A stretch of DNA of 64,000 nt from Escherichia coli (GTDB taxonomy: Bacteria; Pseudomonadota; Gammaproteobacteria; Enterobacterales; Enterobacteriaceae): the NCBI RefSeq assembly GCF_044324785.1, contig NZ_CP172127.1; one strand, 5' to 3'. The position numbers are program-made. The stretch's first letter is position 1; every line of letters begins with the position of its first letter. Below are positions 50,301-56,300 of the stretch, piece after piece.

Positions 50301-53300
50301 CAGTTATGTTCTGTATATCAGGACAAAATGTAGATTCAGAAGAACATGTATCAACCAGCAAAGCGGTTGTTGATGCCTGGGTTGAAGAATGGAATCAGGT
50401 TGACGGAAGTCCTGGCGAACCACTGTACAAAACTATGCCACTCTACTGTCACGCTACCTTGCCAGCGCCGGTAGTGCCTGAAGGACTGGTTAAAGCGGTG
50501 CGTTTTTATGAGCAGGTAAAAAATGAGAATCCGCCAGTTGGGACTGGTGCGTGGAAAGACGCTGTTGACTGGGTGCTCGAAGAGGCTTGCCAGGCTGTAA
50601 ATACAGACATCAAAGGATGAACGATATGGCAACCAACAATCGTAAAGCCAAGATGCTAATTTCCCGTGTATACAGACTTTGCTACCCCAGCCAGTGGTTG
50701 AGAGTTAGCAATCGCCGTGTGGTGTTGTTCTCATTTTCTGGAATTGCCAGAGAGGGAATCAAAGATAAGCGCAGCGCGGCGCAAAACCGCTGGAAAAACA
50801 ACTTGCGCACTAAAGGAGCCTAATATGGCTATTGCCGCAAGTTACACCATGCATCTCTACTGTGATTGTCGCCAGTGTACAAATGGTAAATATCAGTCGC
50901 CAGACTTCGGTGAGTATATCGGTACGTCATGGGCTGGCTGTGCAAAAGAAGCACGTAAAGATGGATGGCGAATAAGCGCCGACAAAACACGTGCTTTTGC
51001 GCCCGGACATAAAGTTTTGAGGATTAACAAATGACAACATTTACCGACGACGACAAGAAACTAATTAAAGAAATCAGGGAGCGAATCGGCAGCCTGGACG
51101 TGCGAGACAATATTGAGCGCCGGGCTTATGAAATTTCTCTGGCATCACTGGGAGCAGAACCTGTAAGCCAAACTTACAACTTGCCAGAATTAATCGAAGG
51201 CATGGAGGTTTCCATTGATGTAAGCACTTGTGATGCGGATTTAGGTAATCGCTATTTCGGTACCGTCACCGAGGCGTTAGAACTTGATACTGCCAAGAAT
51301 GGTTACATCCTCCTGGTTCAGGACGCAGAGCCAAACTTCGATGTAAATGGCAACTCTCCGGTAACTCCGGATGGTTGGATAAGCTGTAGTGAGCTAATGC
51401 CGGAAAAGAACCAGAACGTGCTTATTTCGGTGAATTTCGATAGCTCTCTGGTTGAACCGCTAATATGCTCCGCACGCTATACAGGAAGCACATTCCGGCG
51501 AGGAGAAGCAACGATTAAGCCGGGCAATGGTATTGAGCAAGCAACTCACTGGATGCCGCTACCGGAACCACCGCAGGAGGTTAACCGTGGCTAACCTGCA
51601 ACTTGCCGTCAAAGGTGAATACTTCGATGCCATGATTCGCGGAGAGAAAACGGAAGAGTATCGCCTGTGTAATGACTACTGGAATAAGCGAATCATGTTC
51701 CGGGAATATGACCGCCTGATTATCACAAAGGGATATCCGAAGCGCGACGACTTCAGTCGCAGAATTGACGTCCCGTATGACGGATATGAAATCAAGACAA
51801 TCACACATCCGCACTTCGGTGATAAACCGGTAAAGGTGTTCGCGATAAAGGTAAATATTGATGGCTAAATCAGCAGCAGAGCGCAAAGCCGCTCAGAGAG
51901 CCAGACAAGCTGCATCTGGTGTGCGTAAGCTGGAGATTGTGCTTGATGCTCAGGAAATTGAAATGCTGGAGCGTAACTGTGCCACGCGTCGCCCCGGGCG
52001 TGCGCCTTACGAATTTGGTGAGTATATAGCGTTACTGATCCGCCAGGATGATGCACGCGTGCACGGGCGTATAAAATCGATCAGCAGAAAACGTTGCGGT
52101 AAGTGCGGCGAGAGAGTTCCTGTAAATTCATGCCCGTGTAATGGTGACTCGCAATGCTGGGTGACTAAAGGCTGGCATGAAACGAAATTAATAGTGTGAC
52201 ATGTCACGAGTAGATTATGCATGATGAATTTGATGGGTTTTGAATACTGCCGCCAACTATGGCGGCTTTATTTTGCATGGTACTATTACCACAACGGTAA
52301 CTATTACCACGGTGGTTATGATGCCTGCTGAACCTAAAACCTATAAACGCAAATCAACGCAATTTAAGCCGCTCACAGCAATGCAGGAGGCTTATTGCCA
52401 GTCATACATCAAAACGCCTGAAAACCAGACTCAGGCAGCGATTAACGCAGGATTCTCCCCAAATACAGCGGCAGTTAAAGCCAGTGTCATGATGCGCGAT
52501 GAACGCATTCAAAAACGGATTGCCGAGTTGATGGAGGAGCGCAACAAACGAATGCGCGTCAGTGCTGATTACGTTCTCATGCGCTTGGTGGAGATCGACC
52601 AGATGGACGTGATCGATATCCTCAACGACGATGGGAGCCTTAAACCAATCCGTGAGTGGCCGAAAATCTGGCGCACTACGCTTAGTGGCTTTGATCTGTC
52701 ATCGACCATCATGAACATGAACGAGGATTCGATAGAGACAATCCTCAAAAAAATTAAATGGCCTGACAAGGTGAAGAACCTAGAACTGATTGGTAAGCAC
52801 GTCGACGTCAACGCATTCAAAGAACGCCTGGATGTTAATGTGAATGTGACAATTGCTGATCGCATAGCGGCAGCCAGGAAACGACTCAAAGAACGTCAGG
52901 ATGGTAATCAGTGACAGATGCAGCGTTATCTCCTGAAGAGCAGTTGATCGAGGATATTGCAGGGTTCACTCACGATCCGCTTGGCTATGCCCTCTATGCG
53001 TTCCCGTGGGGGGAAGAGGGGACTGAACTGGCACATGCCACCGGTCCACGTCAGTGGCAGGCTGATGCGTTCCGAGAGATACGTGATCACCTGCAGAATC
53101 CAGAGACGCGCTATCAGCCGCTTATGCTGGCACGCGCTTCTGGTCACGGTATTGGTAAATCCGCATTCATCTCAATGCTGATCAACTGGGGCATGTCCAC
53201 TTGCGAGGATTGTAAGGTCGTGGTGACCGCCAACACCGACAACCAGCTACGAACGAAGACCTGGCCGGAAATTATCAAGTGGTCGAACCTTGCTATCACG

Positions 53301-56300
53301 AAAGACTGGTTTACCTGTACCGCTACCGCGATGTACAGCAATGATCCTGGACACGACAAGCGGTGGCGAGCTGACGCAATCCCCTGGTCTGAGCACAACA
53401 CTGAGGCATTCGCCGGACTACACAACGAGCGCAAACGCATCATCGTGGTATTCGATGAAGCGTCGAACATTGCGGATCTGGTGTGGGAGGTAGCAGAGGG
53501 TGCGCTGACGGACGAAGACACCGAAATCATCTGGGTGGCGTTCGGGAACCCGACGCGTAATACCGGACGTTTCCGCGAATGTTTCCGCAAATATAAACAC
53601 CGCTGGAAAACTGCGCAGATTGACAGCCGGACGGTGGAAGGCACTAACAAACAGCAGTTGCAGAAATGGGTTGATGACTACGGGGAAGACAGCGACTTCG
53701 TTAAAATCCGTGTGCGTGGCATATTCCCTGATGCATCTGAATTGCAGTTTATCCCTACCGGTCTTACTGACGAGGCAATGAAACGGGTGGTAACCGCTGC
53801 GCAGGTTGCACATGCTCCGGTGATAATCGGCGTTGACCCGGCATACTCCGGCGTTGATGACGCTGTGATATACCTGCGGCAGGGGCTGCACAGTAAGGTG
53901 CTATGGACTGGTAACAAGACCACCGACGATCTGATTATGGCGAAGCGTATCGCTGACTTTGAAGACCAGTATCAGGCTGACGCAGTGTTCATCGACTTTG
54001 GTTACGGTACCGGTCTGAAGTCAATCGGTGACGGCTGGGGTCGTACATGGCAACTTGTTCCGTTCGGCGGTGCGTCTACTGACCCGCAGATGCTCAATAA
54101 GCGCGGGGAGATGTTCAATGCATGCAAGACATGGCTGAGGCTGGGCGGCATGCTGGATGACCAGGAAACAGCGGACGACCTGTCGGCGGCAGAGTACAAA
54201 GTTCGAGTGGACGGTAAAATCGTTATCGAACCGAAGGAAGATATCAAAGAGCGGCTTGGGCGTTCTCCTGGTAAAGGCGATGCGCTACTGCTGACGTTTG
54301 CGTTCCCTGTGTCGAAGCGTCTGCGAATTCCCGGGCAGCAGAACCAGCAAGGCAAGGCCATCACAGATTACGATCCCTATGCTTAATCCTCTGGTGGGGA
54401 TAATGTCGTTGATATCCTCTGGTGAGGATAAAACAAAGCCAGCTCATAGGCTGGCTGTTTGTGACATGTCACGGTGTTATTGCTCGCTTAACTTCTGCTT
54501 CAGCAAGTAACCTTCAAGCATCCAGATTTTGTTTACAGCATTCTGCCGGGCAATCTTCCGACCAATTTCTGCATCAAAGTTTTCCGGGCTTGCACAGGCA
54601 CTCTCTCCGGTAACGGTGAAGCCATTCTTCAGTACCAATACGCAGAAAGTCAGGAGGTCTGTAGATTTATGCGCTACCCATGAATCGCCAACGCCCATAT
54701 TGGCAGCACGAATGCCGTCATAAGCAGTAAAGAAATGCTCTTCAAGAATGATGCTTTCGATATATTGAGGCGTAACTCGCGGAGCGGTTTTGCCTTTCTC
54801 AACGATTTCTTTTTCGATTTGCTGGTCGTTCATAATCTCACCTTAAAAAAATGCCCGGCGAACCGGGCGAACTGGAAGCAATGAGTTATGCCTTCCGTGG
54901 CTGTACTGGTTTACAGCATGAAGTCATCGCAATGGCGTCGTGCTGTAAAAAGGGCGGTGATAGTCCTTCAAGGGAAACCATCACCGCCAAGCCCCTGGAA
55001 CTTCTGGCATCACGGTCCTTAGGCGTGATTCTGGCGTGGCATGCAGGATTCGAACCTGCGACCAACCGCTTAGAAGGCGGTTGCTCTGTCCGACTGAGCT
55101 AATGCCACAACGCTGAGAGCACTTAGCCTGTTAAGGCGCCACACTTTGTCGCGGCTCCATAAATGCTCTCATCGTTGTACCCTCGTCTCTTCCGAGGCGT
55201 CACACCGAATCGCCGGGATGGTGAATCCCCGTGCGCGGAATAAAACCGCTCGACTTGCACATTCCGGCTACCTGGTTCGTTTGCCCGAGCAAGGGAGGGT
55301 GCCCCTTAAACGTATCCAGACCGCTATCGGCGCATGTGCCATACGCCGTACTGCTCAAAATAAAAGCTCACTCCACCTGTTTAATTTAACGACAAGCCAG
55401 TCAGGTTAGTAACCAGAATGAGCTCTTTAGTTACCCGAAAGGTAATAATTCACGCGTTAAATGTCAACCTTCTACGATAAATAAATCATATGTGGTTAAA
55501 TTGGTAATAATTTAATTGCGTACGGAGTCATTGATATGTGCATGGGTAGCTCACCATCAGTGCCTGCAACACCAGAAGTTCAGGCAGCACCACAGGAGCA
55601 GGATGCCGCCGTTGTTGATGCCCGCGACGAAGAAACACGTCGCCGTCGCGCTGCTGCTGGTCGTAGTTCTACGCTGCTTACCGGTTCTCAGGGCGACACA
55701 TCAACCGCTAATACCAGCGGTAAAACGCTGCTTGGTCAGTAACCGGAGTCATTGAAATGGCGGAAACAACTAAAGAGCGATTGAACAAACAGTTCGCACA
55801 ACTTGAAAGCGAGCGTCAGTCGTTCGAGCCGCACTGGCGCGAGTTGAGTGATTACATCAACCCGCGTGGTTCCCGCTTTCTGACTTCTGAGGTCAACCGT
55901 AACGATCGACGCAATACACGTATTATTGATTCGACCGGGACTATGGCGGCGCGCACTCTCGCCAGCGGCATGATGTCAGGCATCACAAGCCCCGCGCGTC
56001 CGTGGTTTCGCCTGGCTACGCCAGATCCTGAAATGATGGATTATGGCCCTGTTAAGTTGTGGCTTGAGGCGGTGCAGAACCGCATGAACGATATGTTCAA
56101 TAAGTCGAATCTCTACCAGTCTCTTCCGCAGTTATACGGAAGCCTCGGCACATACAGCACCGGTGCAATGGCGGTACTGGAGGATGACGAGGACATCATT
56201 CGCACAATGCCATTCCCGATAGGCAGTTACTACCTGGCTAACTCACCTCGTGGCAGTGTTGACACCTGTTTTCGCAAGTTCTCTATGACTGTTCGTCAGC

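What the first reader, a model, noticed from the sequence alone, without database searches (positions are those of the whole stretch)
52195..54473. Identical 14-bp palindrome TGTGACATGTCACG brackets the terminase module
The same 14-mer (core perfect palindrome GTGACATGTCAC) occurs at 52195..52208, just before the late-region terminator and terminase small subunit, and at 54460..54473, just after the terminase large subunit and next to a terminator-like hairpin. Two identical 14-mers 2.26 kb apart are unlikely by chance. The half-site resembles CRP (TGTGA/TCACA) but the spacer is 4 bp instead of 6, so a different dimeric binder or a recombination/module-exchange boundary is more likely.
Basis: seen in the sequence. 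Interest (0 to 1): 0.45.

Follow-up and report, generated by a model that had tools for sequence, protein, structure and literature searches.

The report
Phage regulator's conserved 12-bp binding palindrome
The repeated palindrome is real, but it marks the ends of transcription units rather than the DNA-packaging genes, and it travels through many unrelated phages attached to the end of one small uncharacterised DNA-binding protein gene, so it is most likely that protein's recognition site.

Summary
In detail: TGTGACATGTCACG occurs exactly at 52195-52208 and 54460-54473. The window holds an epsilon15/phiV10-type (Uetakevirus) prophage integrated beside guaA.

The interpretation needs revising.
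- The core GTGAC-N2-GTCAC is conserved at both positions in Salmonella, Klebsiella and Enterobacter relatives whose flanks have diverged.
- Complete relatives carry a third copy at the end of the structural operon, which lies beyond this window. The "terminase bracket" is therefore two of three sites.
- Each site lies next to an intrinsic terminator, in the order stop codon, palindrome, terminator.
- Copy 1 overlaps the TGA stop codon of the last early gene, not a late or lysis gene. That gene encodes a 112-aa protein with no Pfam family, predicted to be a ribbon-helix-helix domain plus a Cys4 module.
- The same palindrome sits on or within 15 nt of the stop codon of this protein's homologues in N15, ZF40, P2-like Yersinia phages, lambdoid phages and Vibrio-type contigs, down to 29-33% protein identity.
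- Among all 1,024 possible arm sequences it is the outlier: 16 copies against a mean of 0.31, with a strict 2-bp spacer.

Best reading: it is the cognate site of this protein and controls RNA polymerase passage at operon boundaries. Binding and the direction of the effect are untested. I found no published description.

The parts
51861..52199 (+). Gene for a 112-aa ribbon-helix-helix plus Cys4 zinc-module protein (homologue of epsilon15 gp49, phiV10 p55 and N15 gp46). It is the last gene of the early-right transcription unit, and its TGA stop codon (52197-52199) lies inside palindrome copy 1.
52195..52208 (.). Palindrome copy 1 (S1): TGTGACATGTCACG, core GTGACATGTCAC at 52196-52207. It overlaps the wobble base of the last codon and the stop codon of the RHH gene.
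   Evidence: Conserved at the homologous position in epsilon15, Tyrion, Kp4865-1, BUCT554 (centre AG) and ST11-OXA245phi3.2; phiV10 has one arm mismatch.
52249..52274 (+). Intrinsic terminator t1 (GCCGCCAACTATGGCGGC followed by a T tract), 41 nt downstream of S1. It ends the early unit ahead of terS.
   Evidence: The equivalent stem-loop is annotated in epsilon15 (39646-39672).
54437..54456 (-). Intrinsic terminator t2 (AGCCAGCCTATGAGCTGGCT followed by TTGTTTT on the minus strand). It sits between the terL stop codon (54384-54386) and S2. It is strong when read from the minus-strand gene and has a weak T tract when read from terL.
   Evidence: scores it on the minus strand only. phiV10 annotates a terminator at the same place.
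54460..54473 (.). Palindrome copy 2 (S2): TGTGACATGTCACG, core at 54461-54472. It lies 3 nt after the TAA stop codon of the minus-strand gene and 4 nt before the t2 hairpin in that gene's direction.
   Evidence: Conserved in all relatives examined, with one central-base variant.
54477..54833 (-). Minus-strand accessory gene (Pfam Phage_gp49_66, the N4 Gp49/Sf6 gp66 family). S2 follows its stop codon. Different genes occupy this slot in different relatives.
   Evidence: Pfam E = 1.4e-34. RefSeq annotation in a related prophage. Variable right-hand flanks at S2 in viral contigs.

Best explanation
The two 14-mers are two of the three genomic copies of a 12-bp site, GTGAC-N2-GTCAC. I infer that this site is recognised by a dimer of the small protein encoded immediately upstream of copy 1: a ribbon-helix-helix DNA-binding domain followed by a Cys4 zinc module. 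Gene and site form a unit that has spread through many otherwise unrelated temperate phages, with the site sitting on or just after the gene's stop codon.

In this prophage the sites lie at the ends of transcription units, each immediately upstream of an intrinsic terminator in the direction of transcription. The mechanism I think most likely is that the protein, made as the last product of an early unit, sits on these sites and controls whether RNA polymerase crosses the boundary.

I lean towards a physical roadblock or insulator. It would keep early transcripts out of the packaging and structural genes, and keep convergent units out of each other. In lambdoid relatives it would brake expression of Q and xis.

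Shown here: the sequence conservation, the gene-site linkage, the adjacency to terminators, and the predicted fold.

Inferred: that this protein binds the site, that it acts on transcription, and the direction of the effect. My confidence is about 0.7 that the motif is this protein's site, and about 0.35 that it acts specifically as a roadblock.
For: 1. The site is conserved while its flanks diverge, at both window positions, in five further relatives. A third site at the end of the structural operon is exact in epsilon15, phiV10, Tyrion and BUCT554.

2. Gene-site linkage holds across 14 lineages plus Pantoea phage AH07.
- On the stop codon: Uetakevirus, N15, Yersinia vB_YenM_56.17, L021 (33% identity), L027 (29% identity, one arm mismatch) and AH07.
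- 3-15 nt after the stop codon: ZF40, Chlobot, L024.
- 138-226 nt after it: L020, L022, K308.
- The chance of an exact site in a 30-nt window is about 3e-5.

3. Unbiased test. In 270 kb of non-redundant genomes that encode the protein, arm GTGAC at spacer 2 occurs 16 times. The mean over all 1,024 arms is 0.31 and the next best arm has 4 copies. Spacers 1 and 3 give one copy each.

4. The arms never vary, while the central two bases vary even within one genome. This fits two sequence-read half-sites.

5. The protein.
- The AlphaFold2 model is confident (pLDDT 92).
- The alignment shows a conserved basic N-terminal helix and a Cys4 module.
- The C-terminal half weakly resembles TraR and YbiI, zinc-finger proteins of the DksA/TraR family, of which TraR is solved bound to RNA polymerase (PDB profile E = 0.024-0.035; hhalign probability 62%).

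6. Position relative to transcription.
- The order stop codon, palindrome, terminator is seen at S1 and S2 in the window, at S3 in relatives, and in N15 and vB_YenM_56.17.
- Sites also lie 10-24 nt ahead of the next gene's start codon in N15, Chlobot, AH07, K308 and L020, where there is no room for a promoter.
- In lambdoid contigs the site covers codons 2-5 of the Q gene (PF06530, E = 1.5e-48), and in AH07 a copy lies inside Q.
- Lambda itself brakes Q through the paQ antisense promoter and limits xis during lysogenisation. This is established knowledge, not tested here.
Against: - No binding has been demonstrated.
- Three lineages encode the protein but have no site within 8 kb (L017 has none at the stop codon; L023 and L029 have none at all).
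- The arms stay invariant while the protein diverges to about 30% identity and its predicted beta-strand varies. This is unusual for a cognate pair and leaves room for a conserved host factor.
- A roadblock placed upstream of a terminator is redundant with that terminator.
- Blocking terS or the late genes with an early lytic protein is counter-intuitive.
- The gene sits in the 'last early gene before the late genes' slot. In Vibrio-type relatives it is followed by a promoter-leader-terminator module like lambda PR'-tR', which fits a positive, antitermination role at least as well.
- The TraR similarity is weak and was not recovered by single-sequence Pfam scans.
Confidence: 0.45

Rival explanations
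1. Same protein and same site, opposite effect: a site-loaded antiterminator or late-gene switch. The protein waits on the palindrome, engages RNA polymerase as it transcribes across (through the TraR-like zinc module), and lets it read through the terminator that follows. This would turn on the late genes once the last early gene has been expressed, which is the logic of lambda Q with different parts.
For: - The gene occupies the slot that Q occupies in lambda: last early gene, directly before terS in Uetakeviruses and before the holin or lysis genes in L020, L021, L022, L024, L027 and K308.
- The order site, terminator, downstream genes recurs.
- Vibrio-type relatives have the palindrome 63-65 nt or about 107-115 nt upstream of a sigma70-like promoter (10 of 12 matches in L021 and L024). 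A conserved +1 element, one or more strong terminators and the first late gene follow. No recognisable Q was seen among the Pfam annotations of the genes on those contigs.
- Weak TraR/DksA-type similarity in the C-terminal half.
Against: - At S2 the site-then-terminator order holds only for the minus-strand accessory gene, where read-through would produce antisense terL RNA.
- Sites at or inside Q in lambdoid phages that have their own Q, and sites directly ahead of start codons with no terminator, are hard to explain.
- The family also occurs as an accessory gene in phages that have Q or Ogr-type late regulators.
- Late units in this prophage appear to have their own operator-bearing promoters.
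- RHH proteins are mostly repressors (general knowledge).
Confidence: 0.22
2. The site is bound by a conserved host protein rather than by the phage protein. The obvious candidate is MatP, whose matS site GTGACRNYGTCAC has the same half-sites. The phage would be borrowing a host chromosome-organising factor.
For: - The half-sites GTGAC/GTCAC are identical to matS (consensus confirmed in PMC6907758).
- All hosts of phages carrying the motif are gamma-proteobacteria of the Enterobacterales, Vibrionales or Aeromonadales. From memory, these are the orders that have MatP.
- The arms are invariant although the phage protein diverges to about 30% identity.
Against: - The spacer is strictly 2 bp: 28 copies against 1 copy at 3 bp in 11 genomes. 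matS has 3 bp.
- There is no sequence-level relationship between the phage family and MatP (hhalign probability 0.5%).
- A host factor does not explain the tight physical linkage to the phage gene's stop codon.
- Three MatP sites beside guaA would lie far from the Ter region, where matS sites are almost exclusively found (PMC6907758).
Confidence: 0.07
3. The site is a recombination or module-exchange boundary. A short conserved sequence would serve as the place where accessory genes are swapped in and out, or as a cassette end travelling with the gene.
For: - Variable genes abut all three sites. A umuD-like gene with its own promoter and LexA box follows S1 in Klebsiella and Enterobacter relatives. 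Different minus-strand genes abut S2, in the contexts examined with a TAA stop codon a few nt (3 nt in the window) from the palindrome. Different small ORFs and antirepressor genes lie around S3.
- Nucleotide similarity between the window and lambdoid phage Chlobot (91.6%) ends at 52192, 3 nt before the palindrome. The palindrome itself is still present in Chlobot a few bases further on, in a diverged spacer.
Against: - No variable segment is flanked by two sites.
- Twelve base pairs is very short for homologous exchange.
- Invariant arms with a free central dinucleotide suggest selection for recognition, not a recombination scar.
- Operon ends next to terminators are where accessory genes insert in any case.
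- Copies inside coding regions (ZF40 gp08 and gp12, N15 repA, AH07 Q) are not module boundaries.
Confidence: 0.1
4. The site is a DNA-packaging signal (pac or cos) or a terminase recognition site, because copy 1 lies just upstream of terS.
For: - S1 lies between the last early gene and terS, the usual place for pac or cos.
- In K308 and L020 a copy lies 11-19 nt before the terS start codon, following an HNH endonuclease gene.
- A twofold-symmetric site would suit symmetric nicking.
Against: - Each genome has three copies, two of them far from terS.
- In N15, ZF40, Chlobot, vB_YenM_56.17 and AH07 no copy is near the terminase genes.
- The apparent phiV10 genome end inside the palindrome is an annotation convention: the record simply ends at the stop codon of its last gene.
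- terL is annotated as Sf6/P1 PacB-like. Such terminases are of the headful-packaging type (general knowledge).
Confidence: 0.05
5. The motif acts as an RNA hairpin, as an accessory to the terminators or as a processing site.
For: It is transcribed at the 3' ends of three units, directly ahead of terminator hairpins.
Against: - The hairpin is weak and no better than shuffled sequence (-2.9 kcal/mol, z = -0.15).
- The arms are invariant in sequence, with no compensatory changes, from Vibrio to Escherichia phages.
- Rfam finds nothing there.
Confidence: 0.04

Closest known systems
MatP-matS (Ter macrodomain organiser of E. coli)
   Same: - The DNA half-sites GTGAC/GTCAC are identical to those of matS.
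- The host range of the phages carrying the motif matches, from memory, the taxa that have MatP.
   Different: - The spacer is 2 bp, not 3, and strictly so.
- There is no detectable sequence homology.
- The phage protein has a C-terminal Cys4 module in place of MatP's N-terminal four-helix bundle and C-terminal coiled coil.
- The sites are in a phage genome at operon ends, not spread over a chromosomal domain.
Phage and plasmid RHH repressors with palindromic operators (P22 Arc and Mnt, CopG, the ParD, MazE and TacA antitoxins)
   Same: A small dimeric RHH protein encoded next to a short inverted-repeat site. The fold matches are of this kind.
   Different: - Their operators overlap their own promoters, at the 5' end of the gene. 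Here the site lies at the 3' end, on the gene's own stop codon, and at other operon ends next to terminators.
- This family also carries an extra zinc module.
Lambda Q-qut-tR' late switch
   Same: - The regulator is the last early gene and sits directly before the late genes.
- It is a DNA-site-dependent, zinc-containing small protein.
- A terminator lies between the site and the late genes. Vibrio-type relatives have a promoter-leader-terminator module at this position.
   Different: - There is no homology to either Q family (no Pfam match).
- The site is a perfect palindrome that lies upstream of the promoter or away from any promoter, not between the -35 and -10 elements.
- There are several sites per genome.
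- The family coexists with true Q proteins in lambdoid phages.
TraR/DksA-family zinc-finger proteins (F-plasmid TraR, E. coli YbiI)
   Same: A long helix followed by a CxxC...C zinc module with a G-x-x-(I/L)-P motif. Similarity is weak but reproducible. TraR is solved bound to E. coli RNA polymerase (6n57).
   Different: - The arrangement of the third and fourth cysteines differs.
- The helix that in TraR enters the polymerase secondary channel is here part of the RHH core.
- Known members have no site-specific DNA-binding domain.
- The Pfam model was not matched by any single member.
Protein roadblocks to transcription elongation (for example Lac repressor placed within a transcription unit, or CodY and CcpA roadblocks in Bacillus; recalled from general knowledge)
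   Same: A tight-binding dimer on a palindrome inside or at the end of a transcribed region, away from any promoter.
   Different: Those are promoter-type regulators acting secondarily as roadblocks. Here nearly all sites are in roadblock-type positions, paired with terminators, and the effect is untested.

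Membership tests
CRP (cAMP receptor protein) binding site | TGTGA-N6-TCACA: two 5-bp arms separated by 6 bp | tested here: not met
   Written in CRP terms the arms are 4 bp apart. TGTGA at spacer 6 never appears among the enriched inverted repeats, whereas TGTGA at spacer 4 does, being the same motif in a shifted register.
matS (MatP site) | 13-bp GTGAC-RNY-GTCAC with a 3-bp spacer | tested here: not met
   The arms match, but the spacer is 2 bp in 28 of 30 arm pairs with spacers 1-3 across 11 genomes. Only one copy has 3 bp (K308 19491).
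matS (MatP site) | Bound by MatP and located in the Ter macrodomain | not testable with these tools
   The prophage lies beside guaA. That guaA is far from Ter is recalled from memory. Binding needs EMSA or ChIP.
Ribbon-helix-helix regulator with a palindromic operator | The protein has the beta-alpha-alpha RHH fold | tested here: met
Ribbon-helix-helix regulator with a palindromic operator | An inverted-repeat site is encoded next to the gene and co-inherited with it | tested here: met
   The site lies on or within 15 nt of the stop codon in 8 of 14 lineages plus AH07, and within 230 nt in 11 of 14.
Ribbon-helix-helix regulator with a palindromic operator | The operator overlaps the regulator's own promoter (autoregulation) | tested here: not met
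   The site is at the 3' end of the gene. There is no copy upstream of the gene in the window. The promoter-like match GTGACA-18-CATGAT at S1 is weak and not conserved.
Ribbon-helix-helix regulator with a palindromic operator | The protein binds the site | not testable with these tools
   Needs EMSA, footprinting or ChIP.
Lambda-type Q antiterminator module | Homology to a Q family (PF06323 or PF06530) | tested here: not met
   No Pfam match for the window protein. True Q genes coexist with the family in L017, L082, AH07, ZF40 and Chlobot.
Lambda-type Q antiterminator module | The regulator gene lies directly upstream of a promoter, short leader, terminator and the late genes | tested here: inconclusive
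   Met in the Vibrio-type relatives L021, L024, L022, L020 and K308. In the window only the order site, terminator, terS is present, with no convincing promoter between site and terminator.
DksA/TraR C4 zinc-finger family | Significant match to the family profile and a CxxC...CxxC zinc site | tested here: inconclusive
   Profile against PDB: TraR E = 0.024, YbiI E = 0.035. hhalign probability 62%. No member matches the Pfam model on its own. The third and fourth cysteines are placed differently.
cos or pac packaging site | A single site per genome next to terS that coincides with the ends of virion DNA | tested here: not met
   There are three copies per genome. The phiV10 record start inside the motif is only the end of the last annotated gene. 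DNA ends could not be examined.
Intrinsic terminator or structured RNA element | A stable hairpin, or covariation that preserves pairing | tested here: not met
   -2.9 kcal/mol, z = -0.15. The arms are invariant with no compensatory changes. No Rfam family matches.

The most novel reading that the evidence does not exclude
The protein would be a new kind of phage transcription switch: a ribbon-helix-helix domain that parks it on a 12-bp palindrome, fused to a TraR-like zinc module that engages RNA polymerase as it transcribes across. Terminator read-through, and so the early-to-late transition, would then be decided locally at each marked boundary. This would be the functional equivalent of Q in epsilon15-like phages and in Vibrio-type relatives on contigs that also encode ParA-like partition proteins, where no Q is recognisable. 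It would also be the first DksA/TraR-type factor delivered to the polymerase from a specific DNA site.
Probability: 0.2. Interest if true: 0.85.

Novelty: new variant of a known kind. Interest (0 to 1): 0.6.

Why it matters
- Epsilon15-type prophages are common. About 500 of 5,426 complete E. coli genomes carry this region nearly full-length. How they separate early from late transcription is not known.
- This work links an unnamed protein family (152 clusters at 50% identity in a library of 1.8 billion proteins, all annotated 'hypothetical') to an exact DNA site. That turns an anonymous gene into a directly testable regulator.
- The unusual placement points to regulation of transcription elongation or termination rather than initiation. 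The site lies on the gene's own stop codon, beside terminators, and at or inside Q and ahead of xis in lambdoid phages.
- If the zinc module does contact RNA polymerase, this would be a new way of delivering a polymerase-binding factor.
- The identity of the half-sites with matS raises the question of cross-talk with host chromosome organisation.
- Practically, the motif is a simple marker for operon boundaries and for the sites where accessory genes are exchanged in these prophages.

Tried and rejected
1. Physical genome end (cos). The phiV10 record starts at window position 52200, inside copy 1. The record simply ends at the stop codon of its last gene, so I rejected this as evidence.

2. 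CRP site. Rejected on spacing.

3. RNA hairpin. Rejected: the hairpin is weak, shows no covariation, and has no Rfam match.

5. A promoter formed by GTGACA acting as a -35 element at S1. It is flagged by the scan, but the -10 partner is weak and not conserved among relatives, and the arrangement is impossible at S2 and S3.

6. A conserved distance from S1 to the terS promoter. I could not define the terS transcription start, and the S1-to-terminator distance differs between the window (41 nt) and epsilon15 (22 nt). Dropped.

7. Covariation between the protein's beta-strand and the central dinucleotide. The centre varies within single genomes, so none is expected.

8. Searches that produced nothing:
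- The search for related loci with the family alignment failed because no stretch was conserved enough.
- Foldseek against the PDB gave nothing significant.
- phmmer against PDB sequences gave nothing.
- PADLOC gave nothing.
- NCBIfam gave only a sub-threshold YbfE-like hit.
- Literature searches for the motif and for a functional study of the family found nothing.

9. Not attempted:
- A whole-collection scan of bacterial genomes for the 14-mer.
- Negative-control counts in phages that lack the gene. The comparison of all 1,024 arms serves as the internal control instead.

Full report
**The observation**

The 14-mer TGTGACATGTCACG occurs exactly at 52195-52208 and 54460-54473. Its core is the perfect 12-bp palindrome GTGACATGTCAC. 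A one-mismatch copy at 57484-57497 lies inside a coding region. It is shared with phiV10 as coding sequence and is probably chance.

Within the window alone the statistics are only moderate.
- Identical 14-mers are frequent: 92 pairs were observed and about 10.6 are expected.
- A repeated 12-bp perfect palindrome arose in about 6% of Markov simulations.

The conclusion that the repeat is real is nevertheless correct, for comparative reasons.

**Context**

The window contains guaA (37061-38638) followed by a prophage that starts with an integrase gene (38831-40081) and runs past position 64000. It is 95-98% identical to phiV10 and related Uetakevirus phages, and about 82% identical to Salmonella phage epsilon15. 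About 500 of 5,426 complete E. coli genomes carry the region nearly full-length.

The genes upstream of copy 1 are early genes:
- ead/Ea22-like;
- dATP/dGTP pyrophosphohydrolase domain;
- ASCH domain;
- a 112-aa gene at 51861-52199.

Copy 1 (S1) overlaps the wobble base of the last codon and the TGA stop codon of that gene. An intrinsic terminator follows 41 nt later (52249-52266 plus a T tract). Next come two operator-like repeats of the epsilon15 'repressor' type, ATTACC-N5-GGTAAT (52285 and 52303), and then terS and terL.

Copy 2 (S2) lies after terL. It sits between a hairpin (54437-54456) and the stop codon of a minus-strand gene of the N4 Gp49/Sf6 gp66 family (54477-54833). The hairpin scores as a terminator only on the minus strand.

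**Conservation and a third site**

GTGAC-N2-GTCAC is present at both homologous positions in epsilon15, Tyrion, Klebsiella phages Kp4865-1 and ST11-OXA245phi3.2, and Enterobacter phage BUCT554. The flanking sequences differ, and the only changes within the motif are in the central two bases. In phiV10, S1 has one arm mismatch.

Whole-genome scans show a third conserved site (S3) at the end of the long structural operon, directly before its terminator:
- epsilon15 19517;
- phiV10 19493;
- Tyrion 20377;
- BUCT554 27924.

In this prophage S3 would lie at about 71.7 kb, outside the window.

In Tyrion, S2 is about 530 bp from terL and stays beside the minus-strand gene. In the direction of transcription all three sites read stop codon, palindrome, terminator. 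'Bracketing the terminase module' is therefore an accident of seeing two of three sites.

**The motif travels with one gene**

A tblastn search with the 112-aa protein finds homologues in 144 phage records of quite different kinds. The positions of the palindrome relative to the homologue are listed below.

| Phage or contig | Position of the palindrome |
|---|---|
| Pectobacterium myovirus ZF40 | 3 nt after the stop codon, plus two more exact copies |
| Lambda-like phage Chlobot | 7 nt after the stop codon, and 10 nt before the next gene's ATG |
| P2-like Yersinia phage vB_YenM_56.17 | GTGACGCGTCAC overlaps the stop codon |
| Linear plasmid-prophage N15 | GTGACTGGTCAC overlaps the gp46 stop codon; one more copy between gene 33 and a terminator, one in repA |
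| Pantoea phage AH07 | On the stop codon, 24 nt before xis; a second exact copy inside the Q gene |
| L021 (33% identity) | On the stop codon |
| L027 (29% identity) | On the stop codon, one arm mismatch |
| L024 | 15 nt after the stop codon |
| L020, L022, K308 | 138-226 nt after the stop codon |
| L017, L023, L029 | Absent at or near the gene |

Wherever the motif overlaps the stop codon, the last sense codon ends in G and the stop codon is TGA.

An unbiased count over seven non-redundant genomes (270 kb) gives 16 copies for arm GTGAC at spacer 2. The mean over all 1,024 arms is 0.31 and the next best arm has 4. Spacers 1 and 3 give one copy each. Per-genome Poisson probabilities for three or four copies are 1e-5 to 1e-7.

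**The protein**
- It has no Pfam family. It belongs to PHROG 536, labelled 'transcriptional regulator'.
- Its close relatives in a 5.8-billion-protein collection are all 'hypothetical'.
- An exhaustive search finds only 152 clusters at 50% identity.
- The alignment shows a basic N-terminal helix (RK..QR.R), a core of strand, helix and long helix, and a cysteine module with C79 and C82 invariant.
- The AlphaFold2 model is confident (pLDDT 92).
- A family profile searched against PDB sequences picks up TraR and YbiI for the C-terminal half (E = 0.024-0.035), and hhalign against TraR gives 62% probability. These are DksA/TraR-type zinc-finger proteins, and TraR is solved bound to RNA polymerase. 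Single-sequence Pfam scans do not confirm this, so I treat it as a lead only.

**What the site does**

*RNA.* An RNA role is unlikely. The hairpin is no more stable than shuffled sequence, the arms never co-vary, and Rfam finds nothing.

*Packaging.* A packaging role is unlikely, because there are three copies and in most other phages none is near the terminase genes. The apparent phiV10 genome end inside the motif is an annotation convention.

*MatP.* The half-sites equal those of matS, GTGACRNYGTCAC. However, the spacer is strictly 2 bp and there is no sequence homology to MatP. A host MatP explanation is therefore a minor rival.

*Transcription.* The positions point to transcription.
- Sites lie at operon ends just upstream of terminators: S1, S3, S2 read from the minus-strand gene, N15, and vB_YenM_56.17.
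- Sites lie 10-24 nt ahead of start codons, where no promoter fits.
- In a lambdoid class recovered from viral contigs the site covers codons 2-5 of the Q antiterminator gene. One of those contigs (L082) also encodes the RHH protein.

A dimer held tightly at such places would impede RNA polymerase, which is the simplest reading: a boundary element or brake. Lambda's own brakes on Q (the paQ antisense promoter) and on xis during lysogenisation are precedents. That comparison rests on established knowledge and was not tested here.

**The opposite sign is not excluded**

In L021, L024, L022, L020, K308 and L027 the gene is the last early gene. It is followed by the palindrome, a sigma70-like promoter (63-65 nt or about 107-115 nt downstream; 10 of 12 matches in L021 and L024), a conserved +1 element (NCGTGGTG), one or more strong terminators, and the first late gene (in L027 the promoter is not convincing and in L020 no terminator was found after it). 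This layout resembles lambda PR'-tR', with the RHH gene in the slot Q occupies in lambda, and no recognisable Q was seen among the Pfam annotations of the genes on those contigs.

Together with the possible TraR-like module, this makes a site-loaded antiterminator a serious alternative. I put it at 0.22, against about 0.35 for the roadblock. Both share the premise, which I rate at about 0.7, that the motif is this protein's site.

**Known or new**

I found no paper containing the motif and no functional study of the family. A small RHH protein with a nearby palindromic site is a familiar kind of system. Three features are unusual:
- the site lies at the 3' end of the gene and beside terminators;
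- the extra zinc module;
- the arms are invariant across very divergent proteins.

I class it as a new variant of a known kind, with moderate to good interest.

Noticed in passing
window 52285-52301, 52303-52319, 55430-55446, 47959-47975, 44854-44932, 45628-45644: A second, different inverted repeat, ATTACC-N5-GGTAAT, occurs 13 times with up to 2 mismatches, against 1.6 expected. The epsilon15 record annotates it as a 'repressor' site. Copies lie in the immunity region and also just upstream of terS, of the gp3-like gene and of a mid-early promoter-like site. One repressor may therefore control both early and late units directly. How early and late timing is set in these phages then becomes an open question.
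   Followed up: partly
window 52240-52323: RefSeq annotates phiV10 terS from a TTG that corresponds to window 52240. That reading frame runs straight through terminator t1 (52249-52266). The epsilon15 start corresponds to the ATG at 52321 (or 52318), which is the more plausible start.
   Followed up: partly
window 54388-54403 and 54416-54431: A direct repeat, CCTCTGGTG(G/A)GGATAA, occurs twice between the terL stop codon and terminator t2. It is conserved in close relatives (contexts). Its function is unknown.
   Followed up: no
L004 ~1960-2010, L005 ~2848-2900, L006 ~1585-1640; window 52208-52248: In Klebsiella and Enterobacter relatives a umuD-like gene follows S1 directly. It has a strong sigma70 promoter (TTGACT-17-TATACT) and a perfect LexA box (TACTGTTTAAATATACAGTA). 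The window keeps only a fragment of this region (gcatgat...gaatact), which suggests the gene was deleted.
   Followed up: partly
Right-hand flank of S2: window 54474-55110 and loci L049, L051, L053, L067, L080, L092, L097, L102, L105, L118, L120, L121, L127, L139, L146: The slot next to S2 holds different minus-strand genes in different relatives. In the contexts examined the gene ends with a TAA a few nt from the palindrome (3 nt in the window). This looks like a hot spot for exchange of accessory genes. In the window the slot holds a Gp49-family gene and a tRNA-Arg(tct) at 55032-55108.
   Followed up: partly
L086, L098, L107, L109, L112, L113, L078, L085, L088, L117, L122, L110, L071 (viral contigs): Dense arrays of GTGACA/TGTCAC half-sites, in both orientations, surround a full palindrome. 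They resemble iterons or a plasmid centromere. No RHH-family ORF was detected in the fetched pieces, so another protein may read the same half-site.
   Followed up: partly
L021 8450-8650, L024 8465-8580, L022 1184-1305, L020 8615-8700, L016 (K308) 33330-33510: Vibrio-type relatives, on contigs that also encode ParA-like partition proteins, have a conserved late-control region. It comprises a sigma70-like promoter, a conserved +1 element NCGTGGTG with a leader hairpin, one or more strong terminators and then a holin or lysis gene. The two small minus-strand ORFs annotated there in K308 are probably spurious.
   Followed up: partly
window 51800-55200: Megablast of this region against the phage collection lists 65 Synechococcus phage records among its matches. 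This is unexpected for an enterobacterial prophage. It may be due to the tRNA or to a short conserved segment.
   Followed up: no
window 57484-57497: A one-mismatch copy of the 14-mer (GTGACATGGCAC on the plus strand) lies inside the small gene that follows the portal gene. It is identical in phiV10 and was not found in epsilon15. It is probably coding sequence that resembles the motif by chance.
   Followed up: partly
L015 (N15) 14235 and L017 3092: GTGACTGGTCAC is conserved inside the repA gene of N15 and of an N15-like contig. In the latter it lies right next to a sopC-like centromere repeat (GGGACCACGGTCCC).
   Followed up: no
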